From the IMG/VR virus record IMGVR_UViG_3300029913_000001: 64,000 bases of DNA, one strand, 5' to 3'. Each line of letters opens with the position of its first letter. The first letter of the stretch is position 1. Shown in pieces: positions 5,570 to 56,079 of the stretch. Source of the DNA: a virus. Its lineage: Duplodnaviria > Caudoviricetes. Made by a program: the position numbers and the translations under genes. The notes under the pieces were generated by a model that did not search any database, was not told the origin of the DNA, and saw nothing but the letters and a program-made list of their open reading frames with translations.

Positions 5570-6031
5570 ATTATCCTTCCGTGTTCGTTTCCTTCCAACG
5601 CTGCTCCCAATTTTTGTCAACCTGTATTGCTGCGTCCTCTGGATGTCCGGGACGAATCTGTGCGCCGGGATGCCATTGTGGTAATTCGACACTGCCATCT
5701 AGGCGGGCCTTAGGAACATACTCAACCCCATCGATAACAACTTGTTTCATCGTTTCTCCTGATATAACAGTAACAACAGTTGAGTGAATTAACGATAATC
5801 TATCTTGCTAGTTTATCGAGTAATTTCTCATCGAAATATTCACGCCATTTACCAACTCGCCATTTACACGGCAAAATAACATTATAGATGTGATTCATAA
5901 TATATTCAGGTTTACTACAATCGATTACCTCTGCCACTCCGATGTGCATGATAACTTTTCCAAATCGCGTAACAATAATTTCGCTATTGTCATCGGAAAA
6001 ATCCCAGTCGTATTCATTTTCGATTGGCATT

Positions 6032-7021: not shown

Positions 7022-7307
7022 TGTTCTTCCTTTCACTGTCGGTTAAATAATTTTCATATTTTCCATTGTTAGCGTAATATGCGTCCCATGATTCTTTGGA
7101 AATTTGAGTGGTATATGAAGATCCACGTCGCTTTTCCGAAAGAAGTGATCGCCGCTTTTCCCAATAATTAGCACGTAGCACAATAGCAAAAATGAAAATA
7201 GTTAAAAAAGCCAAATACCAATAAAAATTACGATAAACGAAAAACAGTTGAACCGCCAACAGGCAAAATTCTACCGTTAGTACTGTCCAAATAAATTTAC
7301 GCATCAT
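7014..7307 (-). CDS. Small membrane protein
   Basis: Two hydrophobic segments at the N-terminus. Confidence 0.65.
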   Translation of the reverse strand: MMRKFIWTVLTVEFCLLAVQLFFVYRNFYWYLAFLTIFIFAIVLRANYWEKRRSLLSEKRRGSSYTTQISKESWDAYYANNGKYENYLTDSERKNNE

Positions 7308-8635: not shown

Positions 8636-8870
8636 AAGACTCTTATATTTTTAAATTCATTCCACTCCTATTGGTGCGGCACCATATTTATAATAATTGC
8701 CGGCCAGCACAAAACAATTACTAATAAAAGCGCAGCGGATAGTATCGACCTATCAGAGTTGGTTTTGCTCATTAATTCATCCAGCATTTGATTGATACTA
8801 TCCCATTGCAAATGCAGTAAATATCCTGCGATTAAAAAACCAGTTAGAAAATAAAATAAAAGAAAAAACA

Positions 8871-9851
8871 TTATTTCTCCAATCCGTAAAACTTTTTCAA
8901 CCAAGGAAGAATCCATTCTTCATATTCTTTTCGTAGTTCGACAGTCAATGCCGGTAACTTTGATTCTAGTGAAAGTGTCTTTAATGTATCTACCCCAACT
9001 AAAATCTGCTCACGAATTTTTTCAATAGGATGCTCTCCACGACGAATAGATTTTAAATACTCAGCGTAATCTGATGTGTACGGATATTTAAGTTTCTTTC
9101 CAGACAATAAATCAATGCCCTCATTAACGATCCTTAAAGCATGGGAAACTGCCTTCCAATCGGCGGTAGACTGCGCAGCATCTTTTGCTCGAGTTCCAAA
9201 TTTTGCGACTTGAACATTTACAATATCAAGATTAGTTTCAAATGCGCTCGAATACGGTAAAATCTTTTCCAATAATTTAATACACGGCCGCATATTTTGG
9301 CCGGCCGAATCAATAGCATAATCGGTTATTGAAAAATATTTCGGATAATCTTTTTCAATTTCTACGGCAAGTTCCTCAAATTCAGCTTGATGATCTACAA
9401 TACGATGCAATTTTGGAAATCTTTTAAATAAATCTCTAGCGTCCAGGGCCGCATTTAATCGGTCACCTTTATCAGAATACACTTGGGCCTGGTTGACCGC
9501 ATATCCTACCATTGATTTAATATTAGCCGTCAAAAATTTATCGTGTAATTCGGTGCAAAACAATGGAAATCTTCCATCGTATATCGCCTGCTCACCGTCA
9601 ACACACTCAACCGATGCAGCTAGCTCTAGCGCATATGTCTGCCCCTCCATAAAATCTCTTGCAAAAACCTGTAGAGGAACATTTTCACAATCGATATCGT
9701 TAATAACGGGCCTGGTATTTTTAATCGACTTACCAAGCAACAAGGAATCTAACTCAGGAAGTACAATGTATTTCATATCCCTATCCGATTCGGGTGTAGA
9801 AGTTCCATAAAGTTGTGATCCGTATAGACAAGAAAATAAAATCTTTTGCAT
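8871..9851 (-). CDS. DNA polymerase beta-superfamily nucleotidyltransferase (RlaP/NrdC.11-like)
   Basis: GSQLYGTSTPESDRD (GS...DxD) motif; DWKAVSHALR; LKSIRRG. Confidence 0.8.
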   Translation of the reverse strand: MQKILFSCLYGSQLYGTSTPESDRDMKYIVLPELDSLLLGKSIKNTRPVINDIDCENVPLQVFARDFMEGQTYALELAASVECVDGEQAIYDGRFPLFCTELHDKFLTANIKSMVGYAVNQAQVYSDKGDRLNAALDARDLFKRFPKLHRIVDHQAEFEELAVEIEKDYPKYFSITDYAIDSAGQNMRPCIKLLEKILPYSSAFETNLDIVNVQVAKFGTRAKDAAQSTADWKAVSHALRIVNEGIDLLSGKKLKYPYTSDYAEYLKSIRRGEHPIEKIREQILVGVDTLKTLSLESKLPALTVELRKEYEEWILPWLKKFYGLEK

Positions 9852-9863
9852 ATTATATTCCTT

Positions 9864-12352
9864 TCAATGCGATAATTTCCAAACAAGTGCCTCGTTGTAC
9901 GATATTTTAAAAAGTTTGATTCCCGCAACGTTATATACGTAAGTATTTCCGGAACGAACAGTCATTTTAAACATCAGATTGCCGCTGTTATCAACCTCAA
10001 CTATTCTTCCAAGAAATTCTTCCCCAGTGTAGCTCCTATAAATTGCCCAATCACCCAACTCAAAAATATGTTCGTCGCGTTTAGCCATATCATTTTTCCA
10101 AGTAATGAATTAAAATTTTATCTATGGTTGCTTTTTCAACCCACCGCAGGCTTACAGAAGTCCTATAAGATACTCCTAAAATTTCGGCTGTTTCAAAAAT
10201 AATAGACTCCGAGAATCCTAAATCATCACCGAGGTATATTCCCAAATATCGGTTACCCGACATTCCGGTATAAAAAATAGCGTCCCCCGGATTTAATTCA
10301 TCACCTGTCTTAGTGTAAATCATTTCGATAACCGATGAAGTAAAATCTTATCGGTGGGAACAATCACACATTTTTCGGTAACCATAATTCCGCCGTAGGC
10401 CCCACCCTCTTCAGTAACGAGTACTATTTTCTTTGGACGAATTTCAGATATTTGTAACAATATAAGAGTTTGCCCCTTATAGCCAGGTGTAAGAATCCAA
10501 TCTCCTACTTTAAATTCATCACCGAAAAAATCTACCATTATTGCTCCAATTTATAAATCTAATATCCCGAAATAACACCAGATTGCACCTCTAGATACCA
10601 TGCACCAAAATCGTGATCTTTATTAAGAATATCTTGTTCAGCTTCTGCGTCAAATAATACCTTAGCCTTACTAAGGTATTCATACATCTTCTTCTCATCG
10701 CATTCTTGAAGCATATCAAAATTATGCTGAAATGCTAGGTAATGTCCGATAAGATTCTTTTGCAAGACGAGCTTAATTTCATGCTCGGTTAATTCACGGT
10801 ATTTTAGAACGCGCTTAAGAGTTTCGAGTAACGGATAAAAAGTATTGCCAAAGTCATTATCGCCTAATACAATTGCAATTGTTCTCATATTATCTCCGTC
10901 GTTATTATTCCTCTAGCCGATAAATTAGTGCTTCCGCATCAGTTAATTTTGTTATTATTTCATCCCGTAAACTACACCAGCCAAGGTATTCTGGAAATCG
11001 AATAAGAAAACAATCACGCCGGTAATCGACTACCGAAATAACTATTCCTATTTCGCTAGGCAGTTCATTGAGTCCTTGAACCCGAACATAATCACCAATG
11101 TTAAACATTATCTTCAAAATGGAGCCGGTCAGTCAACCTCTTAATACCGGCGGTATATCTAATTACATCTGCAGAATATTTTGCATAATTATCAGCTGCA
11201 ATACTCCACTCAATATCCGTCAAATTTTCGCCTTTGATACATGCAGAATAATAGGCTTTTTGCATTTCGACATATTTTAATTTCTGTGCCAACGTAGCAA
11301 TTGCTCTCATATTATCTCCGTCGTTATTGCCCGAGTCGCCAAATCAATGCTTCATCATCGGTTAATTTTCTTAATGCTTCCACCACTATTATGTCATAAT
11401 AATCAAAACTATAATAAATTATAGCATACATTCGTCCGCCATATTCATCCTGCCGAAAACGATTTATTTGGCCAACCGTAGTATTTTTAAAAGTATCGAT
11501 AAATTCTACAAAATCATTAACCCGAAGTTCAATTCCATTTTTATCACATATCATATCGATAACTGGTAGATGAAAAGATCATCCGGTGTTAACTTAACAA
11601 GCGACTGAGAATACCAGATATAATTTTCATCCTTAATCTCATATAAATTACAATAGGCAGCGCCAGTGCCATTATCTTTTCCAATAAATTTAACTTTTTT
11701 CGGTAAAATACCAAAAATCGAAACTACCGAAAAGACATAAACCCAGTCGCCTACCGAAAATTTAACGCCATTTCGATCGTGCATTACAACCCCAGTCGAT
11801 AAATTAGCATTTCATCCGGCGAGACCTTCATCAGATCCAAAGGTGACCAGGGAAACTTCGATCCATTTTCATTCTCTAAGATTGCAAGTTCAGGAAAAAA
11901 TTCATTTGCTGCAGGTTTAAAAGAGACAACCTTTCTTGGTAAAAATTGATGCTGCCGTGAAAACGAAACAGAGCATACCCAATCACCAATTTTCAGTGGC
12001 GTATTTAACCGATCGCAAAAAGTAGTTGTAATCTTATTTGTCATTGACTCAACTTCCAAATTAAAAATTCAGCGGGTGAACACCCATGGAACTTCCGACC
12101 GTATTTCATGTTGCAATACATTTCGTACCCGGAAAGAGGAGCATTCGTCCAAGACGAGGAAATATCTTTTCTATTAATCCTCTTTTCGACTCCGATATAA
12201 CTGCCATCAACTAATTCACGAGAGAGCTCGTACGCAATGGCCTTGGCTCGTCGACGAGTACGTGTGAACCCTCGATAATCCAGCCAACGGCCATCTTTGT
12301 CGCACTCAAAAATACTCCACTTTCCGATAATTGCCCAGCTAGGCCGTCTCAT
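9864..12352 (-). CDS. Array of ten small ORFs; seven SH3/KOW-like paralogues plus 12041-12352 carry a shared C-terminal tag
   Basis: 9864, 10090, 10320, 10905, 11324, 11551 and 11784 share D..G..[LF]..GD[WYF]V-like N-termini and LIxRL-like ends. 12041 has only the tag. 10559 and 11101 are unrelated. Confidence 0.75.
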
Positions 12353-34360: not shown

Positions 34361-34801
34361 TTATGTTTTTGAAAAAAATTGCATTCGTCCAATTTTACAA
34401 TAAAAATGATATTTTCGAGATCGAAATCGAAAATTGTTAAAATACAAAATATTTCGTGGCAATCGAATTGGATCCGATCTTTTTAAAATTGTCGCTGCCA
34501 AACTAAAAAATTTTGATTGTGTTTTGAAATTAACCTGATGTTGGGAAAACTTATGAAATCCAAATTGCCAGTGGTTACCAACGTGGTCGTTAACAATTGA
34601 ACACACAGTAGCCTTTGGTAAGGTGTTAAGCCGATTCATAATTACTTCGCCGACAGCGTATTGTCCTAGTAATGGTTCTCCACCGGCTTCTCGAAAAATA
34701 GCATTCGCCAAACAAGTTTGATCACGCGAAGGTGGCTCTGCATATAAAACCGCAGAGACAAATAGAACCCCGCATAGTATGGTAGTTGTTATTTTAGTCA
34801 T
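34361..34801 (-). CDS. SleB-like cell wall hydrolase (Hydrolase_2)
   Basis: CLANAIFREAGGEP..GQYAVGEVIMNR, CSIV, WQF motifs; signal/anchor N-terminus; TATAAATA at 34808-34815. Confidence 0.88.
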   Translation of the reverse strand: MTKITTTILCGVLFVSAVLYAEPPSRDQTCLANAIFREAGGEPLLGQYAVGEVIMNRLNTLPKATVCSIVNDHVGNHWQFGFHKFSQHQVNFKTQSKFFSLAATILKRSDPIRLPRNILYFNNFRFRSRKYHFYCKIGRMQFFSKT

Positions 34802-38886: not shown

Positions 38887-40929
38887 TTACTTCTTTTCAA
38901 TCTTTTTTTGATGAATGGCCTTGCTTTTTGCTCCTAGGCAAATTTTGCAATTTTTTGCAAATGTTTTTCCAGGAACAAACGCATGTGGCTTATCCGATGA
39001 TGCGTTCTTGTTCTCCGTTTTAACTGCTTCCGTTGCAAGCTGTCTAATAGCTTCAGCTAATCTACGAGCAGCCTTGGGATTTTTCTTAACATCGGTTTTC
39101 TTTAATGCCTCATTAAGAGCGACAATTTTAGCATCTATTGTTTTCTTTGATTCAATCAACTTTTTAGTTTTAACTTTCATACCAAGACATTCCGCTAATT
39201 CTTTTTCAAGGTTAATAAGACTTTCTGATGCAGGCATACGAGTCTCTCTTCCTAAAGGATTCTTTTTCTTAGTAACCGGGGCATCAAAAGCAGATGAATC
39301 AATATCTTCATCGCCTTCTGCCGGTACTTCCTCAGGTAATGCTAAATCGGTAGCAGCAGTTGGCTCGTCGCCCGATAAAACAAGAGTTGCGTTTTCTAAT
39401 TCAGTCTTCTTTTCCTTAACTGAAGTTAATAAATCATTAATAACTGTATTTGCAGTCGTCTGATACCTATCCGCTTGTTCTGCTCCTAAACTAGTTCGAA
39501 TTGAATCTACTAGGGCAGGTAATTCATCGTTAGACATCTTACCCAATTCAGAAATAGTATCGGCTAATCTATCAACCAAATCTTTTGCCGCTAGTACAGA
39601 TTGCGCAGATTCAATCTCGCCTTCTTTTAATAATTTTCTAGCTCGGGACTTCAGGGCATTTTCTACAATCTTTGTCTTTTTCATATAGATGCTTTCTCCA
39701 ACTTTATTTACCGGCTGATTTTCAGTTCGGCCGCCGTGCAATGCTACTTTGAATAATTCGTTAAAATTATTTGCTGCTTCCGGATTTGATTTAATTGCGG
39801 CATCAATAGCTCGAGCAGCATCTTGCTTTTTAAAGCCTTGATTACACAATGCACTATACACATCCTTTTCTATCTTTGTCGGAACATGTTTAGTGGGAGC
39901 GGGATTACTATTTGCGGCTGGCGCCTTAGCCGGGGGGTTATTTGCCTGCGTGGTTGCTGCCGGAGGCGTGGGGGCCGCGGGTGAAGCTGCGTTCGGAACG
40001 GGAGCGGCTGGTGTTTTCGAGGTAAGATAATCTGTTACTTTTTCAAGTTCGGTTGTTACTGATTTTTTTTCATTGGGAGTTGCTCTAGAAAACGCCGGAT
40101 CCCTTTGCAATAACGTAGTAATATCATTAGGGTTTGGCGCAGTCCGAGTTTTGGCGATTCGAGAAATATAATCTGATAATTTTTGTTTAGCAGCCTGAGA
40201 CAAATTTTTAAAAGAAGGATCCTGTAAAATCTTAGTTGTGTACGAAGAAATTTCAGTAGTTGTCCTCGGCGGTCTAATGGGATTTCCAGCAGCATCAGTG
40301 TTAACAACCTTACCCCAATCTTTATGAATTGTATTGCCCTTCATTCCTTGTACAAATGCTCCTAATGCAGAGCCCGCAGTGTGAGCAATTCTAGAAATAG
40401 CTGGGCTCGCTACCGCGTGTGCTGCAGAAGCGGCCGACTTAACTCTATTTCCTAAAGTTGGTCGTATCGAGCCTGTAGTGGGAGTCTGAGTTTCTACGCC
40501 GGTGGGCTCGGGTTGAGTTTCTGGCGCGGGCTCTTGCTGCGCCGGCGCAGCAGCCACCGGTTGATTTCCTTCAGGCGCAGCCGTAGGAGGTGTTCCTTCT
40601 GGCTCGGCTGAAGTTTCTGCAGGGGATTCCGGCTGAGCCGCTTGCTCATCGGGAATAGCTTGAGTAGCAGGATTAATTGATCGGCGCGCGGCGTACTTCC
40701 CAGGAGATCGCTCAGTTAGCAAATTTTCCAGTGTTAATAATCCCATGTAAGTTTTATCGCGCTCACTTGTATGGAATCTATTACTATTTCTAATAACATC
40801 TAATTTTTGTCGTGTCGTTTCCAAAAGGTGGCTAATCTTATTAGGAGTAAGATTGGATACCGAAATATCGAAATATTCTGTCAACAATGATTCTAAATTA
40901 ACGGGTTTTTGTAATTCATTTAATATCAT
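38887..40929 (-). CDS. Probable head core/scaffold-like late protein with a Pro/Ala-rich insert and a RuvA-CTD-like domain
   Basis: MILNEL start, GTAAATA motif at 40938-40944, coiled-coil regions and PA-rich linkers. Confidence 0.6.
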   Translation of the reverse strand: MILNELQKPVNLESLLTEYFDISVSNLTPNKISHLLETTRQKLDVIRNSNRFHTSERDKTYMGLLTLENLLTERSPGKYAARRSINPATQAIPDEQAAQPESPAETSAEPEGTPPTAAPEGNQPVAAAPAQQEPAPETQPEPTGVETQTPTTGSIRPTLGNRVKSAASAAHAVASPAISRIAHTAGSALGAFVQGMKGNTIHKDWGKVVNTDAAGNPIRPPRTTTEISSYTTKILQDPSFKNLSQAAKQKLSDYISRIAKTRTAPNPNDITTLLQRDPAFSRATPNEKKSVTTELEKVTDYLTSKTPAAPVPNAASPAAPTPPAATTQANNPPAKAPAANSNPAPTKHVPTKIEKDVYSALCNQGFKKQDAARAIDAAIKSNPEAANNFNELFKVALHGGRTENQPVNKVGESIYMKKTKIVENALKSRARKLLKEGEIESAQSVLAAKDLVDRLADTISELGKMSNDELPALVDSIRTSLGAEQADRYQTTANTVINDLLTSVKEKKTELENATLVLSGDEPTAATDLALPEEVPAEGDEDIDSSAFDAPVTKKKNPLGRETRMPASESLINLEKELAECLGMKVKTKKLIESKKTIDAKIVALNEALKKTDVKKNPKAARRLAEAIRQLATEAVKTENKNASSDKPHAFVPGKTFAKNCKICLGAKSKAIHQKKIEKK

Positions 40930-42266: not shown

Positions 42267-42821
42267 CTATTCTTCACGTGTATCCATCAATTTTTGTAGT
42301 AACACTAGAACATCGCATCGATAATTTTGCTTACGTAATTGCTGATATAATCTATCTCCTTTTTGCTTTTTTTCTGACCATGTTAGATATTCGCCGCTAT
42401 CAACAATATCACGCCTCAGGGAAATCAATGTATTATTTTTAATCTTTAAAATACTTTGCAATTTAATAAAAAGTGTGCGTTTCATTGTATTCGGCATAGT
42501 ATCATACTTAAAATTTTTAAGATACCTCTTCAACTCTAATACCGGAATAGAAACATCGCGTTCATCAAGATATTGTTTTGCATTCTTCAACGTTGCAATT
42601 ACATTACATAGATCGGTTCCGGAAAGATAAATTCTATCGAACATTGGATATTTAACCGAATCAAGTGCATAGGCGTCGGTTTCACGAATAAATCTTGTTA
42701 GCCCCAATAAATGCAACGTTAGCAGCATTGTAAAAAATATTTCGGATAATTCAGCAACCGAATAATTTTCCATTGTTTGCTCGTTACGAAATGCTTTAGA
42801 TTCAGAAATAAATTCAAACAT
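42267..42821 (-). CDS. Hypothetical late protein
   Basis: MFEFISES start; translationally coupled to the upstream gene. Confidence 0.7.
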   Translation of the reverse strand: MFEFISESKAFRNEQTMENYSVAELSEIFFTMLLTLHLLGLTRFIRETDAYALDSVKYPMFDRIYLSGTDLCNVIATLKNAKQYLDERDVSIPVLELKRYLKNFKYDTMPNTMKRTLFIKLQSILKIKNNTLISLRRDIVDSGEYLTWSEKKQKGDRLYQQLRKQNYRCDVLVLLQKLMDTREE

Positions 42822-43972
42822 TAAAGATGCCTCATAAACGTCGGACGATCAACTAATTTAATCTTACCGTAAGGAGTAGAACTTACAAACCCCTCGTGAC
42901 CGGGAATTCCATTTAATGATGCGGTAATGTTTCCTGGAACCTTATCAAATTCGTGTTTAATAATATTCTTAATCATTACTGTTGCTAGAATTATTTTGCA
43001 AATTGCCAGGTACCCATCTTTATTTTCTAGTAAATATTTTTTAATATTTTCGGCTTTTGTTTTAGATACCTTTCTATCCAAAAAAGATTTAAATTCAAAA
43101 GTAATATTTTTATCTGGCTTTTTTCCTTGACTAGCTAAATTTGCTAAAAACGATTTTAACAAACTGCCTAAATCAGTTATTTTTAAACTACTAAGAAGGG
43201 TCTTATTAAGAAATGCATCAATTACGGTCTGCTTTGAGTTAATAAATTGTAATAAATCCCGGCAGGGTTTTAACGCAGACGGAACAATTTTTTCTCCGAC
43301 CGTAGTTGGGCCAAGTATAACTAGTCCGGGAGAGGGGTTAAGGTGCAATTCTTTTAAGTCTGTTATTGCAATTGGTTCCATTTCTAGAGGGGAATTAAAA
43401 TAACTATGCACCACAATTCCCATCTGAGAATTAGCTATTTTAATTCCCATCTCAGAATTTACAGGCACTGAGTAATTAATTTTATTTGGTTTAAATTTAA
43501 AGGTTCTATTATCATCTTTTCCATACTGTATCGGACGAGTGAACCATAGAACATCAAACTGAATAAACCCCTTAAAGTTAACAGGTAATGCTCGATCCAA
43601 TAAAGGAAATAATCCTGCAAAACTTTTACTAAAAATATCTCTGCCGGGTGAACCGGGAAATCGATCAAACATCATATTATATAAATCTTTTTCGGACATA
43701 GGCAAGCCGCCCATATCATATTTTGCAAATCCTTTTTTATCGGTAAGTGTAAATTTTCCGTGTACTCTTCCTGCAATTCCAGCAGGGGCGCCGTCCCACT
43801 TAATTTGAGATAATTTTGGAGTTGTCGCCGCAGCAAGTAAGGAATTAACAGCGGACTTAGCGCCCAACGAACCATCGCTGCATACTAAATCTTCCGGATG
43901 TTCTATTCTCGATTTCGCTTCGAATAATATTTGCTTCGGCCCATATTGTTTTTGTATCTCTGTTAGTATCAT
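42821..43972 (-). CDS. ATP-dependent ligase-fold (covalent nucleotidyltransferase) hypothetical protein
   Basis: KWDG (motif I), HEGFV (motif IV) and KLVDR (motif V). Confidence 0.6.
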   Translation of the reverse strand: MILTEIQKQYGPKQILFEAKSRIEHPEDLVCSDGSLGAKSAVNSLLAAATTPKLSQIKWDGAPAGIAGRVHGKFTLTDKKGFAKYDMGGLPMSEKDLYNMMFDRFPGSPGRDIFSKSFAGLFPLLDRALPVNFKGFIQFDVLWFTRPIQYGKDDNRTFKFKPNKINYSVPVNSEMGIKIANSQMGIVVHSYFNSPLEMEPIAITDLKELHLNPSPGLVILGPTTVGEKIVPSALKPCRDLLQFINSKQTVIDAFLNKTLLSSLKITDLGSLLKSFLANLASQGKKPDKNITFEFKSFLDRKVSKTKAENIKKYLLENKDGYLAICKIILATVMIKNIIKHEFDKVPGNITASLNGIPGHEGFVSSTPYGKIKLVDRPTFMRHL

Positions 43973-44245
43973 TTACTTGCTCTCTTGAATTTTCTTGATT
44001 CCACGACAAAACTTATTAGAATTTCTATGACGAATACTGCTCAATAAATTCTTTTCTAATTCTTCCGAGGTGGCAGCATCATAACATTCGGCAATAGTAT
44101 CTAATAATGCAATTGCGCTAGCGATAATGTGAGATCCGCGAGATTCAATTACAAAAGAATTATCTCGTTCGGAAGATAACTCGATGAGTGACTCAAGAAG
44201 TGATTTGGTTTGACTATGCATAATTGTATTTATATTAGCAAATGA

Positions 44246-48816: not shown

Positions 48817-49608
48817 TTAAATTCTTATATTACCATTGGTAACAAAAGTTGAAACAATAACGTTACCGTTACCAGTTGGATCCGCGCTATCTAGAAGAAA
48901 TCTAGTCCAGGCAAACGACCCGATAACTGATTGCATCACATAACCAGATGTATTCGAATAATATGTAGCCGAAACATTACCCCAATCTAAATTCGTTGGA
49001 ATTGATGTTAGTGTTCCTTGTGCTACCACATTTCCGGTATAAGCGATCAGATTGCAAGACATTGTAGCAACTGTCGAATTTATAGGTCTAGTCATTAAAT
49101 TAATTTGATTACTAACTACCCCTATGCCCGGGGTATCAAGAAAAGTTAATGGCATTGGATCCTGCATTCCCATCGTGGGCCCTTTCCGGAGAGATGTCTT
49201 TAATCTACTGCCAAAGAAATCATTAATATAAACTGGATAAACATTTCCGGTATTATCTAGAGCAGACAATGCAATCTCATAATCACCTACTTCAAACGGT
49301 GCGAGATCAGAGGAGGTCAACGTTGCTTGAACAACGCCGTTTGCAGTATCTATCGGAGATGCAATAATTGAAACTAATTCATTCTCGGTATTCGGTTCAA
49401 ATAGGCCAAACTGAATTGACACATTCGACACATCGATTTTCTTTTGATCAGAATTTAAACAAGTAATTTTAATAGGATTATTCACGCCCGTATAAATTAC
49501 AATAGGATTCGAATACATAAACACCTCTGAGCACTCTGCAATATTATCGAAACCGACCACCTGAGCTCTTATATGGTTCTTCTCGGGATATACCTTAATC
49601 GTTTGCAT
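48817..49608 (-). CDS. Probable virion (baseplate/Ig-like) protein
   Basis: Beta-rich sequence; ATAAATA late motif at 49613-49619. Confidence 0.5.
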   Translation of the reverse strand: MQTIKVYPEKNHIRAQVVGFDNIAECSEVFMYSNPIVIYTGVNNPIKITCLNSDQKKIDVSNVSIQFGLFEPNTENELVSIIASPIDTANGVVQATLTSSDLAPFEVGDYEIALSALDNTGNVYPVYINDFFGSRLKTSLRKGPTMGMQDPMPLTFLDTPGIGVVSNQINLMTRPINSTVATMSCNLIAYTGNVVAQGTLTSIPTNLDWGNVSATYYSNTSGYVMQSVIGSFAWTRFLLDSADPTGNGNVIVSTFVTNGNIRI

Positions 49609-49690: not shown

Positions 49691-50068
49691 ATGAATCCTA
49701 ATCTATTTGAAACCCTTACCGCAAAATTTCCATTCCTATCGGTTATTTTATATGGGGTAAAGCAAGACGAATTTATCGGTATTGTGCAAAACATCGATAC
49801 ATCTATTACTAGTTTCTATGATGTTAACAAATTAAAAACAGATGACGAAAAACGTTTATTTCTGTTACTCGGAGAGAAATGGTATTTTGAATCTAATCGG
49901 CAACTGCCTATTAATATCTATCTTAAAGATGAATGGCTACCATTTAAAAAAATATTTCGAACTTTTATATCTAAAGAAGTCACCATAATTCATGGGCCAG
50001 TTACGAGTTTATCAAATCTTGCGCAAAAGAAACGGCGACGCAATATAACAGTTATCAAAAAATTATAA
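49691..50068 (+). CDS. Conserved hypothetical protein
   Basis: TATAAATA at 49644-49651, RBS, convergent with 50063. Confidence 0.75.
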   Translation: MNPNLFETLTAKFPFLSVILYGVKQDEFIGIVQNIDTSITSFYDVNKLKTDDEKRLFLLLGEKWYFESNRQLPINIYLKDEWLPFKKIFRTFISKEVTIIHGPVTSLSNLAQKKRRRNITVIKKL

Positions 50069-50635: not shown

Positions 50636-51420
50636 AATCCCGCTTCTGAACATATGGCAGTTATCTGGTTTTTTGAATCTTTTAAATTATTAAATCGAAA
50701 ATTCCATCGTTCAATATTAATAACCGGCCAAATAATCTCTAAATCATTAGAAGTAATTGTAGAAAGCCATCCTTGCCCGCTTTGGCAACAATACACAACC
50801 CACCCACTAACAAGTGCGCGTGATATATCAAATAAAATTCTAGCGCCTCCTGCTAGGCGAAAATAATTTTCGTATGGTTGCTTATTTTCTTCTGCCCACA
50901 CGATCATAGTCTTGATCGACCTATCTAATGCATCCCATTCATCTTCAATGAATACCATATCTTGTAGCCAGCAATTATATATTGCATCTAAATTCCATCG
51001 ATCGATAGATACTTTCGAATCTATAAGCCATTTAAGATACGATGTAGGATTGAAACAATGCACGTCAATAATAAATCTACCCCATCTCATGCAGGCAAGA
51101 TAAAATTCACTATGGCGGAATTCTTCCTCGGTAAAATTGTCATTACCGTGAAAAGAACGGATCGCCATGTAGGCTTGACGACCATATCGACCATGTACAG
51201 TATCTTTTTGATCAAATCGTCTTCGCTGCTCACATAAATGAACAATTAACGTTTTTTCCTGGGAAAAAGATCTTTTGCAAAATTTACAGGTAAATTTTCC
51301 ATCCTGCCCTAGTACAACGGGAGATTTTTTAACTTTTGGGTTAATATATTTAGGCTTACGTATCTTTACCTCAATTTTTTCAGCGTCTCCGGCTGAATTC
51401 CCTGCTCTTCGTCCAGCCAT
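50632..51420 (-). CDS. C2H2 zinc-finger-containing hypothetical protein
   Basis: CKFCKRSFSQEKTLIVHLC. Confidence 0.75.
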   Translation of the reverse strand: MAGRRAGNSAGDAEKIEVKIRKPKYINPKVKKSPVVLGQDGKFTCKFCKRSFSQEKTLIVHLCEQRRRFDQKDTVHGRYGRQAYMAIRSFHGNDNFTEEEFRHSEFYLACMRWGRFIIDVHCFNPTSYLKWLIDSKVSIDRWNLDAIYNCWLQDMVFIEDEWDALDRSIKTMIVWAEENKQPYENYFRLAGGARILFDISRALVSGWVVYCCQSGQGWLSTITSNDLEIIWPVINIERWNFRFNNLKDSKNQITAICSEAGL

Positions 51421-51857
51421 TTAATAATTTCCTCTTTACTCTTAATCTTAAGAATCAAATCAATATCGCTTGTTTTACTCATTGGTAATAATTCTAGCAA
51501 TAACTTTTTCAATGGATTAATTGAATCCCGCTTGTTTGCGCCAAGCCAATAATGTTTCTGCTTACCCAATCCTGGAGATATCGCGCATAAACTCAACCAA
51601 CCAATTTTCTTATCTTTACTTAAATCCCAAAAATTCTGATTTGAAAATGTGTTCGCCGCCATGACATAATATTTTGATAATTCATCCCCGCCTTGAACTG
51701 ACGCAGCCCAACGTAGCAGAATATACGGTGAAAAGATTTTCTTTTCCTCGTCAGTTAATCGATCATAAAAAGTGTAATCCTTTTTATCTAAAGCCGACAT
51801 TTCGTTCCAAATTGCAAGTGGAGAATTGGAATCTTGTTTGCCTTTTTCTTTTGCCAT
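51366..51857 (-). CDS. Probable clamp-loader small subunit (gp62-like)
   Basis: FSPYILLRW...NTFSN...HYWL pattern and replication-module context. Confidence 0.5.
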   Translation of the reverse strand: MAKEKGKQDSNSPLAIWNEMSALDKKDYTFYDRLTDEEKKIFSPYILLRWAASVQGGDELSKYYVMAANTFSNQNFWDLSKDKKIGWLSLCAISPGLGKQKHYWLGANKRDSINPLKKLLLELLPMSKTSDIDLILKIKSKEEIIKWLDEEQGIQPETLKKLR

Positions 51858-51909
51858 ATACTAATTATAACTAATTCCTTTTTCTACGTCAAGAGATAAA
51901 TATTGTATA

Positions 51910-52527
51910 ATGAAAATTACCGAATTATATCGACCAAAACTCGGAAAAAATTTAGAAGCCCCGGCATTTGATTATTTTAAAAAGAGCCACAAAACATCAG
52001 ACTATGACTATGAGAAGCGACAAGACCTTCAACAAGAGTTGAGAGATAAATTAAAATCCCTCGGGTGGAAACATTTAAATTCCGGAGTCTATAGTTCAGT
52101 GTTTTCAAATCCAACAAAATCTTTTGTACTTAAAATTAATAAGCGCCCAGATCCCGGCTATCAACGATACGTTAATATTGTTAAATCTCATCGAAATAAA
52201 CATTTTCCAATTATAAGCGATATTAAAAAGATGGAAATAGCCGGTAATATCTATTATGTTTATTTAATTGAAAAATTAATATCCATTCCAGCTAAAATGG
52301 CATTTAATTATGAACGCTGGTTCGACTCTATTATAACAAAACCCGGTATTCCATTGGAAAAATTATTTTGGAATAATGTTCCAATTATATTTAAAAAACA
52401 ACCAGGATTATTGAAAGCACTTCAAATAGTAGAACAATCGGCTATCTCGGAAAGCATTGACCTACACAGTAAAAACATGATGAAAAGGGCCGATGGCACT
52501 ATTATTATTACTGATCCATATGTTTAG
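51910..52527 (+). CDS. Protein-kinase-like protein (T7 gp0.7-like), paralogue 1
   Basis: SGVYSSVF glycine-loop-like segment, VLKI, IEKL, DLHSKN catalytic loop, ITDP. Confidence 0.8.
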   Translation: MKITELYRPKLGKNLEAPAFDYFKKSHKTSDYDYEKRQDLQQELRDKLKSLGWKHLNSGVYSSVFSNPTKSFVLKINKRPDPGYQRYVNIVKSHRNKHFPIISDIKKMEIAGNIYYVYLIEKLISIPAKMAFNYERWFDSIITKPGIPLEKLFWNNVPIIFKKQPGLLKALQIVEQSAISESIDLHSKNMMKRADGTIIITDPYV

Positions 52528-53048
52528 ATTGCATTTCCAATATTAATTATTTCTAAAGACTTCGGAATGTCCCGTACTAGATAAATACACGGCGGTCGAT
52601 AACCGCCACACAACGGAATACAGAGTAACTGGCCCGGAACGGTCTTAGGCACAAACCACTTTGTTGTCTGATAAACATCTTCAACATCCACAGACAAATA
52701 ATCCGCAGTAAATGAACTCATTGGATTTAAAGAAAATGCGCTAAATCCCCTGCCACTTATACTGGTAACCGGATTAATTTCTAAATCGCCGTGAGTAGAT
52801 TCCCCAATCAAAATCTGATGATCTGCAGGAACATTAAGAAAATATGTTTCCTTCTTTCGGCCCAACGATAAATCAAAGCGTAATTTAAGAGTTGCCGCAT
52901 AGAATGACTCTAACATAATTAATGGTTGACAATAATAATCCGCTTCTTCTTTCTTAACCGAATTTTGATAAACCCAAAAGTGAATATCAGCTTGCTCTGG
53001 AATAAGATTTAAATCTACAGCAATATTATTTTCGTCTAAAATATACAA
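52524..53048 (-). CDS. Conserved hypothetical protein
   Basis: ORF track; RBS present; lies between the two kinase genes. Confidence 0.75.
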   Translation of the reverse strand: MYILDENNIAVDLNLIPEQADIHFWVYQNSVKKEEADYYCQPLIMLESFYAATLKLRFDLSLGRKKETYFLNVPADHQILIGESTHGDLEINPVTSISGRGFSAFSLNPMSSFTADYLSVDVEDVYQTTKWFVPKTVPGQLLCIPLCGGYRPPCIYLVRDIPKSLEIINIGNAI

Positions 53049-53088
53049 AATTGTTCTCCTGTGTGAACCTGTTATAAATAATTATATC

Positions 53089-53709
53089 ATGCTTATTACT
53101 GAATTCGCGCCAAATAAATTACGCCCCGCTATTGTCGCTCCAACCTACGATTATTTTACTTCGATTCCGCGGTGGAATGATGTAGATTATAATACCAAAA
53201 AAGCGGACGCCAACAAAAAGTTACGAGACTCATTGAAAAGAAATGGCTGGACATATCTCGACGAAGGCTATTATAGTATGGTTTTTGCCAATCCTAAAAA
53301 GTCATTTGTTCTAAAAATTAACAGCAAACCCGATACCGGGTATGAAAGATATGTTTCTGTTATTAAAAAACATAAAAATAAGCATTTTCCAATAATTAGC
53401 GATATGAAAATTGTGAAGATTGACGATCAAAATTATTACATTTATCTCATTGAAAAATTAACTAAACTACCAGCTCTTCAGGCTTTGAGCAATTCAGATT
53501 TTTTCGCTATAATAATACGGCGGGCATATAGCTCATTAGACGTTATATTTAACCACGATATACCTACAATTTTTAAAACCGATCCATCTTTAGTTAGAGC
53601 CCTACGTATTGTAGGTCAGTGTGCAGATGATTGCGGCCTTGATATGCACAGCGGAAATATCATGCAACGAACAAATGGGACTATTGTTATTACCGATCCA
53701 TATTCTTAA
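53089..53709 (+). CDS. Protein-kinase-like protein (T7 gp0.7-like), paralogue 2
   Basis: EGYYSMVF, VLKI, IEKL, DMHSGNIM, ITDP; TATAAATA at 53073-53080. Confidence 0.82.
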   Translation: MLITEFAPNKLRPAIVAPTYDYFTSIPRWNDVDYNTKKADANKKLRDSLKRNGWTYLDEGYYSMVFANPKKSFVLKINSKPDTGYERYVSVIKKHKNKHFPIISDMKIVKIDDQNYYIYLIEKLTKLPALQALSNSDFFAIIIRRAYSSLDVIFNHDIPTIFKTDPSLVRALRIVGQCADDCGLDMHSGNIMQRTNGTIVITDPYS

Positions 53710-53710
53710 A

Positions 53711-55141
53711 TTATTTTTGCCACTCAATCTTCTCAATCTTAAAGGGAAATAACTGTTCCTTATAATATTTTTTCCGAGAGGTAAGGTGATTTTTTGAAAA
53801 TTTGCATGTACTAGTAATATCCCATATCTGCGCAAAATTTTTATCTTTTGCGATACGTATCGCCCGGCCAACGCTCTGAATTGTACGAACGAAACTCTTT
53901 CCCACCTCAATTAAAAATAAATGATTAATTCTAGGAATATCTAGGCCGACCGCAGCAATTCCTGATGTAGCAATAATAACTTTATCATCAGAAGTAGCCA
54001 CTAAATCATATTGCTCTTTACGCAATGTTGAATTTGAAGCACCTGATAAGAAAATTGACCCAGGTATTAATTCTTCTAACAATACTCCTGATTTCTTTCT
54101 ACCAACCAATACAAGAACATTGCCGGTTTTCGCCGCATCTGTAATTAACGTAGAGATGAACTCAATTCTATCCGGATCGGTGACTAGATAAGTTAACTCG
54201 GCAGGATAATCATTAAATGACATTGTATCAATTAATTGTAATATCTTCACATCACATTTGCTGATTAATCCCTTATCCTGTAGTGTGGCGGTAGTTAACC
54301 GATGCAAAACTTCTCCCATTGAAATAGTAAGATTTACTAAATCAAAATCTTCCTTTGGTATAGTTCCTGTAAATGCCCATCGAATTGGAATTTTATTTAA
54401 TACTGTATCGCAAAGTATCGATTTAAGAATATTTCCTTTCAGGCCGTGACATTCATCCACAATTACTGCAACAACGCCTTGTACAAATTTTTCAAATGTA
54501 ATCGGCTCTGGTAATCCAATATCGATCGGAGAATCTTTTAATCTTGACAAACTTTGCCAGGTGCAAATCGTATGAGTCTTAAAAAAATCTTTTCGATCGC
54601 CATAATAAACACCCACGTCCATGCCAAGGTCGATATAATATTTTTCTGTCTGTGTAATCAGATCTTTATTAGGAACAATGACAATACTTCGACCATATTT
54701 TTCAACTTTTTTAGACAAAACCGCCGTCAAAAGACTATTATGATGGATGATTCCTATATGATCCACATAGACATGCGGAGATGGCAAGGTTACGTCATAA
54801 AAATCTTGCTCCGGAACCGACTCAATTTTGTCAATACGTAAAATTCCAGTTCTAGTTCGAATAATATCTCCCGCCACTAATGCGCTCGCATGTATCGGTA
54901 AATAAAATTTATTATACAAAATATGTTTATCTGCACATATTAAGTGCGATTTATCAAACGTTAATTTAACTCCCTCGCTTTGCTTTTTAATAATATATTG
55001 AATTGGAACATATTCATCGGATGGGCTTTTAATTCTGACCGTTAATTCATCCACCGATAACTCTTCATTATAAATTAATGAAGAATTTTTATACGATTGC
55101 ATTGCTGACAATAAGGTGCCAATTTTCATCGACAATTTCAT
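53711..55141 (-). CDS. uvsW: UvsW helicase C-fragment fused to IntC of a split intein (intein part 54737-55141)
   Basis: 135-aa IntC with CADKH (block B), FYDVTL (block F) and HHN|S (block G), followed by SF2 motifs VDECH, FTGT, GLDIP and QSVGR. Own AGGAG RBS. Confidence 0.9.
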   Translation of the reverse strand: MKLSMKIGTLLSAMQSYKNSSLIYNEELSVDELTVRIKSPSDEYVPIQYIIKKQSEGVKLTFDKSHLICADKHILYNKFYLPIHASALVAGDIIRTRTGILRIDKIESVPEQDFYDVTLPSPHVYVDHIGIIHHNSLLTAVLSKKVEKYGRSIVIVPNKDLITQTEKYYIDLGMDVGVYYGDRKDFFKTHTICTWQSLSRLKDSPIDIGLPEPITFEKFVQGVVAVIVDECHGLKGNILKSILCDTVLNKIPIRWAFTGTIPKEDFDLVNLTISMGEVLHRLTTATLQDKGLISKCDVKILQLIDTMSFNDYPAELTYLVTDPDRIEFISTLITDAAKTGNVLVLVGRKKSGVLLEELIPGSIFLSGASNSTLRKEQYDLVATSDDKVIIATSGIAAVGLDIPRINHLFLIEVGKSFVRTIQSVGRAIRIAKDKNFAQIWDITSTCKFSKNHLTSRKKYYKEQLFPFKIEKIEWQK

Positions 55142-55482
55142 ATAACTCCTGTAATTGTTCTACTGTATAATCTGATCGTGGTCCTTTTGAATGATTTTCT
55201 TTAGCTGAAATTACTCTTAAATTTATATATGACCCTATTATTTCGGGTGGGATCGAAAACATAAATCCGTGATGTCTTGAAAATATATGATCTACATGAT
55301 TATCGTTGTATGATATTTTTAAATTCTCGGGATTCACGGTATCATAAAAATAAGTTAATGATTGTGCGGTAAACCTTACTTCCTAAATAATCTACTAGAT
55401 CCCAGCAATCAATATTATTTCTTCGACAAATATTCAGCCAAATTTTCTCACTATATTTTTTAATTAATTCGCTAATTTCCAT
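55089..55482 (-). pseudogene. HNH-like homing endonuclease, frameshifted near 55383
   Basis: MEISEL...DYL, then a +1 shift giving EVRFTAQSL...HVDHIFS...GF...IPPEIIG...NLRVISAKENHSK. Confidence 0.7.
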
Positions 55483-55512
55483 ATCTTCCTGCTCCTGTTG
55501 GTAATAATGCTA

Positions 55513-56079
55513 TTAAGCAGGATTAATAAAATTTAATAAATATTTGCCAAAATCAGAATTTTCATCAATTTCAATATCGAGCAGGGTATCAAAATCTAAA
55601 CATTTCCCGGAACTCGTTGGTAATTGGGAAATTCCTTGTAAATTTTGTAAGAAAATATTAATTGCGGTAGTCTGATGATCTCTTAAAATGACCGTCTCGC
55701 CTGCCATTTGATGCTCTTTCGGCCATACTTGTCCAGCGAAAAAATTATTATCAATAGGATCAAATTGAAAATCACGATTATATGTTCGTTTATCTTCAAT
55801 TTCAACATCATATCCTTTATATATCAGATATTCAAGTTGCTTCGGTAGCAAATTAACAAACGTTTTCCCGCCCATAGTAAAAAAGGCTTGCTTACCATCA
55901 AAGCGTCCCATTCGTACGGCAGGAATCCAACGATTTGCTGGATTAAAAATCTTGCTTTTTTCGTATAAATATTTTCTAATTTCTGGAGGCAATCCAATAA
56001 AGGTGCATTCCACCTCATTATGAATTTGCAAAATGCAATGTTTATTTTCTGCTGTCATGTTATTAATTATAACATTCAT
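55513..56079 (-). CDS. uvsW: UvsW helicase N-fragment fused to a 29-aa IntN (55516-55602)
   Basis: LRDHQ, LPTSSGK|CLDFDT... then TAA TAG; TTGACA-17-TATAAT promoter upstream. The true start may be MTAENK. Confidence 0.9.
   Translation of the reverse strand: MNVIINNMTAENKHCILQIHNEVECTFIGLPPEIRKYLYEKSKIFNPANRWIPAVRMGRFDGKQAFFTMGGKTFVNLLPKQLEYLIYKGYDVEIEDKRTYNRDFQFDPIDNNFFAGQVWPKEHQMAGETVILRDHQTTAINIFLQNLQGISQLPTSSGKCLDFDTLLDIEIDENSDFGKYLLNFINPA

What the first reader, a model, noticed from the sequence alone, without database searches (positions are those of the whole stretch)
51896..53709. Two T7-gp0.7-like protein kinases under late promoters, inserted antisense into the replication module
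Both plus-strand ORFs (205 and 206 aa, clear paralogues) have a Gly-loop-like segment, VLKI lysine, D[LM]HSxN catalytic loop and ITDP. Each has its own (T)ATAAATA box about 8 nt before the ATG and starts M[KL]ITE[LF]. They flank one minus-strand gene. T7 kinase is an early host-takeover and anti-defence enzyme. Late-expressed copies with a capsid-targeting-like N-terminus would instead suggest kinases packaged into the head and injected.
Basis: partly seen in the sequence, partly recalled or inferred. Interest (0 to 1): 0.7.

Follow-up and report, generated by a model that had tools for sequence, protein, structure and literature searches.

The report
Late-made, tagged T7-type phage kinases
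An uncultured giant peat phage carries two stripped-down copies of the phage T7 protein kinase that appear to be made late and carry a short head-loading-type tag, so they may be injected with the DNA rather than made early as in T7; neither timing nor packaging has been measured.

Summary
Two plus-strand ORFs, K1 (51910-52527, 205 aa) and K2 (53089-53709, 206 aa), are 49% identical. They flank one minus-strand gene inside a minus-strand replication block.

They belong to the T7 gp0.7 kinase family. Evidence: PHROG 15752 at E 1e-12 to 1e-14, hhalign against T7 gp0.7 at 97%, homologues carrying PF27024 Phage_T7_kinase, and an AF2 model (pLDDT 91) that best matches T7-like phage kinases. All catalytic motifs are intact. 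The T7 shut-off domain is absent.

Each gene sits 7-8 nt behind an ATAAATA box. In this phage clade the same box-to-ATG arrangement precedes tail sheath, terminase, virion-protein and endolysin-like genes. It is also the predicted late promoter of the related phages CBB and GAP32.

Cultured relatives (CBB, PA5oct, Atu_ph07) keep the same gene order without kinases, so these are antisense insertions.

The N-terminus MxITE[LF] matches the T4 Alt propeptide (MELITE, cut at ITE-6). It is not conserved among T7-like kinases. In PA5oct it is enriched among mass-spectrometry virion proteins (6/9, P 0.012).

Late expression is likely. Head packaging is plausible but unproven.

This scan has already noted late, tagged T7-type kinases on other genomes. 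I found no published description.

The parts
51896..51902 (+). ATAAATA late-promoter-like box of K1, 7 nt before the ATG
   Evidence: The same cassette, GTCAA-N3-4-ATAAATA-N2-3-GTATA-ATG, precedes the first kinase gene of arrays in L007, L008 and L015.
51910..52527 (+). K1, a 205-aa minimal T7-type protein kinase. It has an N-terminal tag MKITE|L, Lys in VLKI, catalytic loop IDLHSKN and Mg-binding ITDP at the C-terminus.
   Evidence: phrog_15752 E 3e-12; 289.7 bits, the top score against the A1-derived HMM, of which K1 is itself a member.
52524..53048 (-). Conserved replication-block gene (phrog_11279, function unknown) lying between the two kinases. It is context, not part of the kinase system.
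   Evidence: E 8e-32; 88 jumbo-phage records; synteny.
53073..53080 (+). TATAAATA late-promoter-like box of K2, 8 nt before the ATG
   Evidence: It is identical in the related contig L041.
53089..53709 (+). K2, a 206-aa minimal T7-type protein kinase. It has tag MLITE|F, Lys76, D185-M-H-S-G-N190 and I-T-D203-P.
   Evidence: phrog_15752 E 2e-14; pLDDT 91.4.
51864..51892 (-). Sigma-70-like promoter (TTGACG-17-TATAAT, then 6 nt to the ATG) for the neighbouring minus-strand gene 51366-51857. It lies back to back with the K1 late box.
38887..40929 (-). 680-aa late protein that begins MILNELQKP, the same tag. It is preceded by TAAATA-N8-ATG and has a region matching a virion structural protein family.
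   Evidence: (phrog_14154).
42821..43972 (-). 383-aa DUF6267 protein that begins MILTEIQK, the same tag
43976..44221 (-). 82-aa virion structural protein gene with ATAAATA-N5-ATG. It is a marker that the box is a late signal.
   Evidence: phrog_11854 E 7e-18. The same box precedes its homologues in L007, L008 and L016.
48817..49608 (-). 263-aa gene with ATAAATA-N4-ATG beside the primase gene. It is the positional and weak sequence counterpart of the MS-verified virion proteins PA5oct EST35_0222 and CBB_289.

Best explanation
K1 and K2 are catalytically competent, minimal Ser/Thr/Tyr protein kinases of the phage T7 gp0.7 family. They consist of the kinase core only: the chain ends right after the Mg-binding Asp, and there is no shut-off domain.

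Unlike T7, this RaK2/PA5oct-like jumbo phage appears to transcribe them late. Each gene has its own T4-type ATAAATA box placed so close to the ATG that the mRNA would be leaderless or nearly so. Each runs antisense to the early/middle replication genes into which it was inserted.

Their first residues, M-x-I-T-E followed by a hydrophobic residue, form an I-x-E prohead-protease-type site like the six-residue propeptide of T4 Alt.

The most likely mechanism is that the kinases are loaded into the prohead through this tag and trimmed. They would then be ejected with the DNA and phosphorylate host proteins (defence systems, transcription or RNA machinery) before any phage gene is expressed. That would be the kinase counterpart of T4 Alt.

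Confidence by step:

- Shown: family, fold, motifs, box position, synteny and tag similarity.
- Inferred: late timing about 0.7, activity about 0.8, packaging and injection about 0.4-0.45.
For: **Family**
- PHROG 15752 (T7 kinase) E 3e-12 and 2e-14.
- Homologues carry PF27024 Phage_T7_kinase.
- hhalign of the family alignment against T7 gp0.7 gives 97% probability, E 8e-11, over T7 residues 64-218. DMHSGNIM and ITDP align.
- The AF2 model has pLDDT 91.4.
- The best BFVD matches are T7-like phage protein kinases, E 1e-10, TMq 0.6-0.69.
- PDB matches are eukaryotic-type kinases such as PknB, CaMKI and CDKs, E about 1e-4.
- Lys76, Asp185, His187, Asn190 and Asp203 are invariant or nearly so across 17 homologues.

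**Late signal**
- 6 of 26 ATAAATA sites abut an ORF start, against 28 of 1063 controls.
- The same arrangement precedes tail sheath (L016, L017), TerL (L007), virion proteins (window 43976-44221 and 38887-40929) and an endolysin-like gene.
- The box also works at a distance with an SD in between (window 8691 and 49645; PA5oct_0221; CBB_289). It is therefore a promoter, not a ribosome site.
- ATAAATA is the predicted late promoter of CBB and GAP32, and CBB has a gp55-like sigma (PMC5259590).
- The box is conserved before first-of-array kinase genes in five other contigs.

**Insertion**
- Synteny without kinases in CBB, PA5oct and Atu_ph07.
- The K2 orthologue sits in the same slot in L041.

**Tag**
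- It is present in 109 of 139 family representatives.
- T4 Alt begins MELITELF behind a TATAAATA box and loses six residues at ITE-6 (PMC5694885). The gp21 motif is L/I-x-E (PMC9026906).
- The tag is shared with non-kinase late proteins here.
- In PA5oct, 6 of 9 tagged non-early proteins are MS virion proteins, against 90 of 341 background (P 0.012).
- Untagged kinases of fENko-Kae01 and DLP6 sit in early-type gene clusters with SD sites. The fENko-Kae01 kinase is absent from the one supplementary file held as text, which lists proteins found in that particle preparation.
Against: - No measurement of timing, cleavage, virion content or activity exists for this phage or for any phage with a tagged kinase. 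No cultured phage in the collection carries this subfamily.
- The tag pattern is short and loose. T7 gp0.7 itself starts MNITDI by apparent chance, which shows such matches do arise.
- AF2 leaves residues 1-6 unplaced (pLDDT below 50). That fits a flexible tag but also a disordered end of no function.
- The PA5oct enrichment is modest and rests on 9-14 proteins.
- A gp21-like protease and a gp55-like sigma were not looked for in this genome, because no whole genome is held.
- A box 7-8 nt from the ATG implies leaderless translation. That is unusual for T4-type late genes and untested here.
- Metatranscriptome contigs cover parts of both genes but carry no strand or timing information.
Confidence: 0.5

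Rival explanations
1. The kinases are made late but are not packaged. They act inside the producing cell late in infection. Possible roles are silencing defence systems that sense late products such as capsid, terminase or portal, or regulating host or phage proteins during assembly. The conserved N-terminus would then serve stability, translation of leaderless mRNA or a protein contact, not head targeting.
For: - The late-type box evidence is the same as for the main reading.
- T7 kinase is promiscuous and disarms several defence systems (bioRxiv 10.1101/2024.12.20.629319; PMC12345140).
- No proteomic evidence places any kinase of this subfamily in a virion.
- Residues 1-6 are unplaced in the model.
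Against: - Synonymous positions of the first six codons vary between homologues (GAA/GAG, TTA/TTG/TTC/TTT), so selection acts on the peptide.
- The same peptide heads unrelated late proteins, including one with a virion-protein family region.
- The tag fits the gp21 cut motif and the Alt propeptide.
- The tag is enriched among PA5oct virion proteins.
Confidence: 0.3
2. The ATAAATA boxes are incidental AT-rich sequence, and the kinases are early or middle host-takeover genes like T7 gp0.7. They would be read from unrecognised plus-strand promoters or by read-through.
For: - TATAAATA is not over-represented in the window overall: 10 sites against 10.8 expected.
- Relatives in fENko-Kae01 and DLP6 lie in early-type clusters.
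- T7-family kinases characterised so far are early (PMC12345140).
Against: - No plus-strand sigma-70-like promoter was found upstream of either gene.
- Both genes are antisense to all their neighbours, so read-through from the replication operons is impossible.
- The box-to-ATG spacing is non-random (P 9e-5). It is shared with tail sheath, terminase and virion genes and is conserved before kinase arrays in five other contigs.
Confidence: 0.1
3. They are kinase-fold proteins that do not phosphorylate proteins. They could be small-molecule, lipid or nucleotide kinases (the D-x-H-x-x-N loop recalls aminoglycoside and choline kinases) or pseudokinases used as binders.
For: - The chain stops right after the Mg-binding Asp. 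There is no activation segment and no substrate-binding helices aF-aI.
- PDB matches include the pseudokinases MLKL and TYK2 JH2 at similar scores.
Against: - T7 gp0.7 has the same DMHSGNIM...ITDP layout. It is an experimentally proven, highly promiscuous Ser/Thr/Tyr protein kinase.
- The catalytic Lys, Asp, Asn and Asp are invariant or nearly so across homologues, which argues against a pseudokinase.
Confidence: 0.1

Closest known systems
Phage T7 gp0.7 protein kinase (T7K; PF27024 Phage_T7_kinase; phrog_2828/phrog_15752) and JSS1_004
   Same: - Same kinase core and motifs: G-x-x-S-x-x, V-x-K, DMHSGNIM and ITDP.
- hhalign probability 97%.
- Best structural matches.
- A phage-only family with no close cellular homologues.
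- Expected to be a promiscuous host-protein kinase that disarms defences.
   Different: - No C-terminal shut-off or nucleic-acid-binding domain: 205 aa against 359 aa.
- Two paralogues here and up to eight in relatives, instead of one.
- A late-type ATAAATA box and antisense placement instead of early class I expression.
- A conserved N-terminal I-x-E tag that T7-like kinases lack.
- Found in a jumbo myovirus, whereas the literature states the family is almost exclusive to Autographiviridae (PMC12345140).
T4 Alt (head-packaged, injected ADP-ribosyltransferase) and the capsid-targeting sequences of T4 internal proteins IPI-III
   Same: - A late promoter (TATAAATA) upstream.
- N-terminus MELITE|LF against MKITE|L and MLITE|F.
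- The propeptide ends in the gp21 motif I-x-E and is removed at ITE-6.
- A host-modifying enzyme delivered with the DNA.
- The tag is shared among unrelated cargo proteins.
   Different: - A different enzyme class: kinase against ART.
- Alt has an SD-containing leader, whereas these genes would be near-leaderless.
- Cleavage, packaging and a gp21-type protease are not shown for this phage.
- The IP capsid-targeting sequence (MKTYQEFIAE) is 10 residues and differs in sequence.
ATAAATA predicted late promoters of RaK2-like jumbo phages CBB and GAP32
   Same: - The same heptamer precedes structural genes.
- A gp55-like sigma is present in CBB (PMC5259590).
- PA5oct virion protein gene EST35_0222 has ATAAATA-N5-ATG.
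   Different: In this clade the box usually abuts the start codon (10 cases of TAAATA-N3-9-ATG in 64 kb). In PA5oct only 6 of 609 TAAATA sites do so. None of these promoters has been mapped experimentally.
Kinase-PolyVal (PF18762) domains of phage polyvalent proteins (Iyer et al. 2017, PMC5512222)
   Same: Kinase-fold domains. Multi-kinase fusion proteins do exist in this family (P0022 with 5 repeats, P0069 with 4).
   Different: There is no Pfam match to PF18762 at E up to 1. These are stand-alone single-domain proteins and match the T7 family instead.

Membership tests
T7 gp0.7 kinase family (PF27024 Phage_T7_kinase / phrog_15752) | Significant sequence-profile match to the family | tested here: met
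   phrog_15752 gives E 3e-12 for K1 and 2e-14 for K2. hhalign against T7 gp0.7 gives probability 97%, E 8e-11. Homologues carry precomputed PF27024. The local Pfam copy returned no significant family and no PF27024 row for the window proteins. It may not hold that model, so they were not scored against it directly.
T7 gp0.7 kinase family (PF27024 Phage_T7_kinase / phrog_15752) | Protein-kinase-like fold with ATP-binding Lys, catalytic Asp/Asn loop and Mg-binding Asp | tested here: met
   The AF2 model has pLDDT 91.4. Foldseek matches T7-like phage kinases at E 1e-10 and PknB, CaMKI and CDK at E about 1e-4. K76, D185, H187, N190 and D203 are conserved and align with T7 DMHSGNIM/ITDP.
T7 gp0.7 kinase family (PF27024 Phage_T7_kinase / phrog_15752) | C-terminal basic shut-off domain (defines gp0.7 orthologues, not the kinase family) | tested here: not met
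   The proteins end at ITDPY, and T7 residues 219-359 have no counterpart.
T7 gp0.7 kinase family (PF27024 Phage_T7_kinase / phrog_15752) | Early expression from host-RNAP promoters | tested here: not met
   No plus-strand sigma-70-like site lies upstream. A late-type ATAAATA box is there instead. This is motif evidence only.
T7 gp0.7 kinase family (PF27024 Phage_T7_kinase / phrog_15752) | Ser/Thr/Tyr protein kinase activity | not testable with these tools
   Needs an enzyme assay or phosphoproteomics.
T4-type capsid-targeted, protease-trimmed head cargo (Alt, IPI-III) | Short N-terminal propeptide ending in the prohead-protease motif L/I-x-E | tested here: met
   K1 has M-K-I-T-E|L and K2 has M-L-I-T-E|F. 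T4 Alt has M-E-L-I-T-E|L-F, cut at ITE-6. The motif is L/I-x-E.
T4-type capsid-targeted, protease-trimmed head cargo (Alt, IPI-III) | Same tag on several unrelated late proteins of the same phage | tested here: met
   The tag heads the 680-aa protein (MILNELQKP, with a virion-protein family region), the 383-aa DUF6267 protein (MILTEIQK), a 131-aa protein (MKINEITR) and a 76-aa protein (MLISEF).
T4-type capsid-targeted, protease-trimmed head cargo (Alt, IPI-III) | Tag predicts virion proteins where a proteome exists | tested here: inconclusive
   In PA5oct, 6 of 9 tagged non-early CDS are ESI-MS/MS virion proteins against 90 of 341 background, P 0.012. With five small early ORFs included the figure is 6 of 14, P 0.043. 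The numbers are small, the pattern is loose and PA5oct is a distant relative.
T4-type capsid-targeted, protease-trimmed head cargo (Alt, IPI-III) | gp21-type prohead protease encoded by the phage | not tested
   No whole genome is held for the window, and I recognised none in the 64 kb.
T4-type capsid-targeted, protease-trimmed head cargo (Alt, IPI-III) | Protein present in virions, N-terminally trimmed and ejected | not testable with these tools
   Needs virion proteomics with semi-tryptic N-terminal peptides. No cultured phage with this subfamily was found.
Kinase-PolyVal (PF18762) | Pfam profile match | tested here: not met
   PF18762 is not among the Pfam hits at E up to 1.

The most novel reading that the evidence does not exclude
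A large, uncultured clade of T4-related jumbo phages uses a head-delivered kinase arsenal. Diversified T7-type mini-kinases, one to eight per genome, would be made late from leaderless ATAAATA transcripts and loaded into the prohead by a five- or six-residue I-x-E tag. After trimming they would be injected with the DNA and phosphorylate host defences before any phage gene is expressed. The tag would then allow the injected enzyme cargo of such phages to be predicted from sequence alone.
Probability: 0.4. Interest if true: 0.8.

Novelty: new variant of a known kind. Interest (0 to 1): 0.6.

Why it matters
T7 kinase has recently been shown to be a broad counter-defence enzyme that works by mass phosphorylation of host proteins. 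The literature treats it as an early protein found almost only in T7-like podoviruses.

This window shows three things about the kinase core:

- It is very widespread: 4126 cluster representatives in metagenomes.
- It is often multiplied into arrays.
- In one clade of giant phages it has been re-wired to a late promoter and a T4 Alt-like head-loading tag.

If the kinases really travel in the capsid, phages would have a second class of pre-made injected host-modifying enzymes besides ADP-ribosyltransferases. The tag would also give a sequence-only way to list the injected cargo of uncultured phages.

The near-leaderless layout of both early-type and late-type promoters is a useful rule for annotating this clade.

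Tried and rejected
- **T7 origin of the tag.** I first thought the N-terminal motif was an ancestral part of the kinase, because T7 gp0.7 starts MNITDI. I rejected this. T3-like, PP81, SRT7 and K1F-like gp0.7 proteins start quite differently. The fENko-Kae01 and DLP6 kinases also lack the motif.\n- **Box as a ribosome site.** I rejected the idea that ATAAATA replaces an SD site, because the same box occurs 22-43 nt upstream of other genes with an SD in between.\n- **Local Pfam scan.** It gave no significant hit for either kinase. That copy may not hold PF27024, so this says nothing against membership.\n- **PDB sequence search.** No hits.\n- **Own genome.** Not held, so gp21 and gp55 homologues and further kinase copies could not be sought.\n- **Cultured relatives.** The A1 profile found no kinase in CBB, PA5oct or Atu_ph07. 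No cultured carrier of the tagged subfamily is available for a proteome check.\n- **fENko-Kae01 proteome.** The one supplementary file held as text, which lists proteins found in the particle preparation, does not list the untagged kinase ENKO_502. The preparation was ultrafiltration only and is not decisive either way.\n- **DUF6267 in T4.** None found.\n- **Metatranscriptomes.** Four peat or permafrost RNA libraries hold read-length contigs identical to bits of both kinases and their neighbours. Contigs give no strand, ends or timing, and DNA carry-over cannot be excluded, so I draw no conclusion on expression.\n- **PA5oct paper.** It reports sigma-70-like promoters only and defines no late promoter.
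Full report
**1. The observation**

The window is a minus-strand-dominated piece of a large phage. It encodes NAMPT, ribonucleotide reductase, NAD-ligase, DnaB-like helicase, primase, UvsW-type helicase and UvsY.

Two plus-strand ORFs stand out. K1 is 51910-52527 (205 aa) and K2 is 53089-53709 (206 aa). They are 49% identical end to end, E 1e-70. In a tree of 64 family members K1 is sister to K2 plus its 79%-identical orthologue P0001 (UFboot 96 / SH-aLRT 71; the bootstrap had not fully settled).

They flank one minus-strand gene, 52524-53048, and are packed tightly. K1's stop overlaps the 3' end of that gene by four bases. K2 ends two bases before the 3' end of the helicase gene.

The boxes are gATAAATA at 51895-51902, 7 nt before the ATG, and TATAAATA at 53073-53080, 8 nt before the ATG.

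**2. What the proteins are**

Several lines of evidence agree:

- PHROGs places both in phrog_15752, the T7 protein kinase family, at E 3e-12 and 2e-14. There is a weaker match to phrog_2828, the PHROG of T7 gp0.7 itself (for that assignment).
- The local Pfam copy gave nothing significant. Homologues in the large protein collection carry precomputed PF27024 Phage_T7_kinase.
- A 17-sequence alignment (A1) compared with T7 gp0.7, fetched from NC_001604, gives hhalign probability 97%, E 8e-11, over T7 residues 64-218. FDMHSGNIM and ITDP are in register.
- AlphaFold2 on A1 gives a confident model, pLDDT 91.4 and pTM 0.85. Only residues 1-6 are unplaced.
- Foldseek against viral models returns T7-like phage protein kinases first, E 1e-10 to 1e-8 and TMq up to 0.69.
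- Foldseek against the PDB returns eukaryotic-type kinases such as PknB, CaMKI and CDKs, together with pseudokinases, at E about 1e-4.
- Lys76, Asp185, His187, Asn190 and Asp203 are invariant or nearly so.

The chain stops two residues after the Mg-binding Asp. This is a kinase core without an activation segment or C-terminal helices, and without the T7 shut-off domain.

T7K is a proven promiscuous Ser/Thr/Tyr kinase that disarms retron, DarTG and other defences. JSS1_004 does the same for Dnd and others.

**3. How common the family is**

A profile search of 1.84 billion representatives found 4126 proteins at E up to 1e-3 and 1395 at E up to 1e-10. Most are about 200 aa. A few chains carry 2-5 kinase repeats.

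In related viral contigs the genes form arrays:

- eight in a row in L015
- seven in L007
- five in L008
- four in L001
- two in the 360-kb genome behind L016

Paralogues within an array are scattered over the tree, so the arrays are old.

The literature I could read says the T7-type kinase is found almost exclusively in Autographiviridae (PMC12345140). The jumbo-phage comparative review does not discuss it.

**4. The ATAAATA box**

TATAAATA is not over-represented in the window, but its position is not random. 6 of 26 ATAAATA sites lie 3-9 nt before an ATG that opens an ORF of 80 or more codons. Other 7-nt offset windows give 0-2. Composition-matched 7-mers give 28 of 1063 (P 9e-5).

The genes behind such boxes are classic late genes:

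- an 82-aa virion structural protein (window 43976-44221; its homologues in L007, L008 and L016 have the same box)
- a 680-aa protein with a virion-protein family region (38887-40929)
- an endolysin-like gene (34361-34801)
- tail sheath (L016, L017)
- large terminase (L007)

The 263-aa gene beside the primase (48817-49608, ATAAATA-N4-ATG) is the positional and weak sequence counterpart of PA5oct EST35_0222 and CBB_289. Both are mass-spectrometry virion proteins. EST35_0222 itself has ATAAATA-N5-ATG.

Elsewhere the box sits 22-43 nt upstream with an SD in between. It therefore behaves as a promoter element, not as a ribosome site.

For CBB and GAP32, ATAAATA was already proposed as the late promoter, and CBB has a gp55-like sigma (PMC5259590).

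The box is conserved before the first kinase gene of arrays in L007, L008, L015, L020 and L034. A wider shared cassette, GTCAA-N3-4-ATAAATA-N2-3-GTATA-ATG, includes K1.

With the T4 rule that transcription starts about six bases after the box (my own knowledge), these mRNAs would have leaders of 0-3 nt.

This fits a habit of the phage. Six minus-strand genes have TTGACx-like -35 hexamers, a 17-nt spacer, TATAAT and 5-9 nt to the ATG. One of them (51892-51864) lies back to back with the K1 box.

No plus-strand sigma-70-like site precedes either kinase.

**5. Insertion**

CBB, PA5oct and Atu_ph07 keep the same order: helicase, small gene, phrog_11279 gene, three or four genes, one opposite-strand gene, structural protein, primase. 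All are co-oriented and no kinase is present. The family profile finds none anywhere in those genomes.

A Logan contig (L041) from another sample has the K2 orthologue in the same antisense slot, with an identical intergenic region. A JGI contig has two tandem kinases antisense to both neighbours.

"Inserted antisense into the replication module" is therefore right.

**6. The N-terminal tag**

M-x-[ILVM]-x-[ED]-[hydrophobic] heads 109 of 139 family representatives. In multi-kinase chains that pattern, which begins with Met, occurs only at the true N-terminus. Synonymous codon positions vary, so the peptide is what is conserved.

I fetched T4 alt. It begins MELITELFDE behind a TATAAATA box. Alt is known to lose six residues at ITE-6 (PMC5694885), and gp21 cuts after L/I-x-E (PMC9026906). 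K1 (MKITE|L) and K2 (MLITE|F) fit this closely.

The T7 start MNITDI looked like a counter-argument, but other gp0.7 proteins start MTFTEA, MNNSSP, MNPMNA and MCADSK. The untagged kinases of fENko-Kae01 and DLP6 lie in early-type clusters behind SD sites.

In the window the tag also heads the 680-aa late protein, a DUF6267 protein and two or three small proteins.

As an independent test I took PA5oct, whose GenBank record marks MS-detected virion proteins. Outside its early region, 6 of 9 CDS with the tag are virion proteins, against 90 of 341 overall (P 0.012). Counting five small early-region ORFs gives 6 of 14 (P 0.043). This is supportive but thin.

**7. Reading**

| Status | Items |
|---|---|
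| Shown | family, fold, intact catalytic motifs, paralogy, antisense insertion, box position and its association with late genes, tag similarity to Alt |
| Inferred | late timing (about 0.7), activity (about 0.8), head loading, trimming and injection (about 0.4-0.45) |

The main rival is a late kinase that acts in the producing cell.

Metatranscriptome contigs from peat contain identical fragments of both genes but give no strand or timing.

**8. Relation to earlier notes of this scan**

After I had reached the Alt comparison, the look-ups showed two things. The same genome has GNAT-fold and ART-fold arrays noted with the same leader. Late, tagged T7-type mini-kinases have also been noted on several other genomes.

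These are unchecked AI notes. They prompted the PA5oct test, which I ran myself. The finding is therefore not unique within the scan, although I found no published description.

Noticed in passing
window 56058, 51857, 38357, 34303, 24233, 7746 (minus strand): Canonical sigma-70-type promoters (TTGACx-like -35, 17-nt spacer, TATAAT) end only 5-9 nt before the start codon of replication and other early-type genes. Early-type as well as late-type transcripts of this phage would therefore be leaderless or nearly so. This hints at a host that translates leaderless mRNA well. It also moves the likely start of the helicase N-fragment gene from 56079 to 56058.
   Followed up: partly
L015:2359-7184; L007:4268-5366 and 8854-11362; L008:660-1938 and 5979-7235; L001 (four copies): Related uncultured phages carry tandem arrays of the same mini-kinase, eight copies in L015. 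Only the first gene has the ATAAATA box. Later genes follow with SD sites or overlapping stop/start codons. Array members are scattered across the family tree.
   Followed up: partly
P0022 (1021 aa), P0069 (813 aa), P0043 (838 aa), P0102 (1769 aa), P0016 (399 aa): Single predicted proteins contain 2-5 repeats of this kinase domain. The pattern as searched, which begins with Met, occurs only at the very N-terminus. I did not check whether they are true fusions or gene-calling artefacts.
   Followed up: no
window 51885-51912; L007:8825-8857; L008:5950-5982; L015:2330-2362: A roughly 25-nt cassette, GTCAA-N3-4-ATAAATA-N2-3-GTAT(A/C)-ATG (GTAAA in L015), is shared upstream of kinase genes in different phages. 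This is more than the bare box and suggests that promoter and gene move together.
   Followed up: no
window 53711-56079 (minus strand): The UvsW-type helicase is in two pieces (188 aa and 476 aa), with a small HNH-like ORF and a faint intein-splicing match between them. The L041 relative has an uninterrupted 492-aa helicase.
   Followed up: no
window 49691-50068 (+) and 48817-49608 (-): This is a divergent gene pair with ATAAATA boxes on both strands of the intergenic region. The pair is conserved in position in CBB (CBB_288/289), PA5oct (0221/0222) and Atu_ph07. It forms a small late island inside the replication block.
   Followed up: partly
window 52586-52612 (minus strand): A strong 12-bp GC-rich hairpin, scored as terminator-like on the minus strand, lies inside the 3' part of the phrog_11279 gene, 60-85 nt beyond the K1 stop on the plus strand. 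It could stop convergent transcription, but I did not examine it.
   Followed up: no
PA5oct MK797984.1 179881-180267 (EST35_0271): The annotated start is probably five codons too far upstream. ATAAATA-N5-ATG at 180252 gives a protein starting MKIKEIIL, which carries the tag.
   Followed up: no
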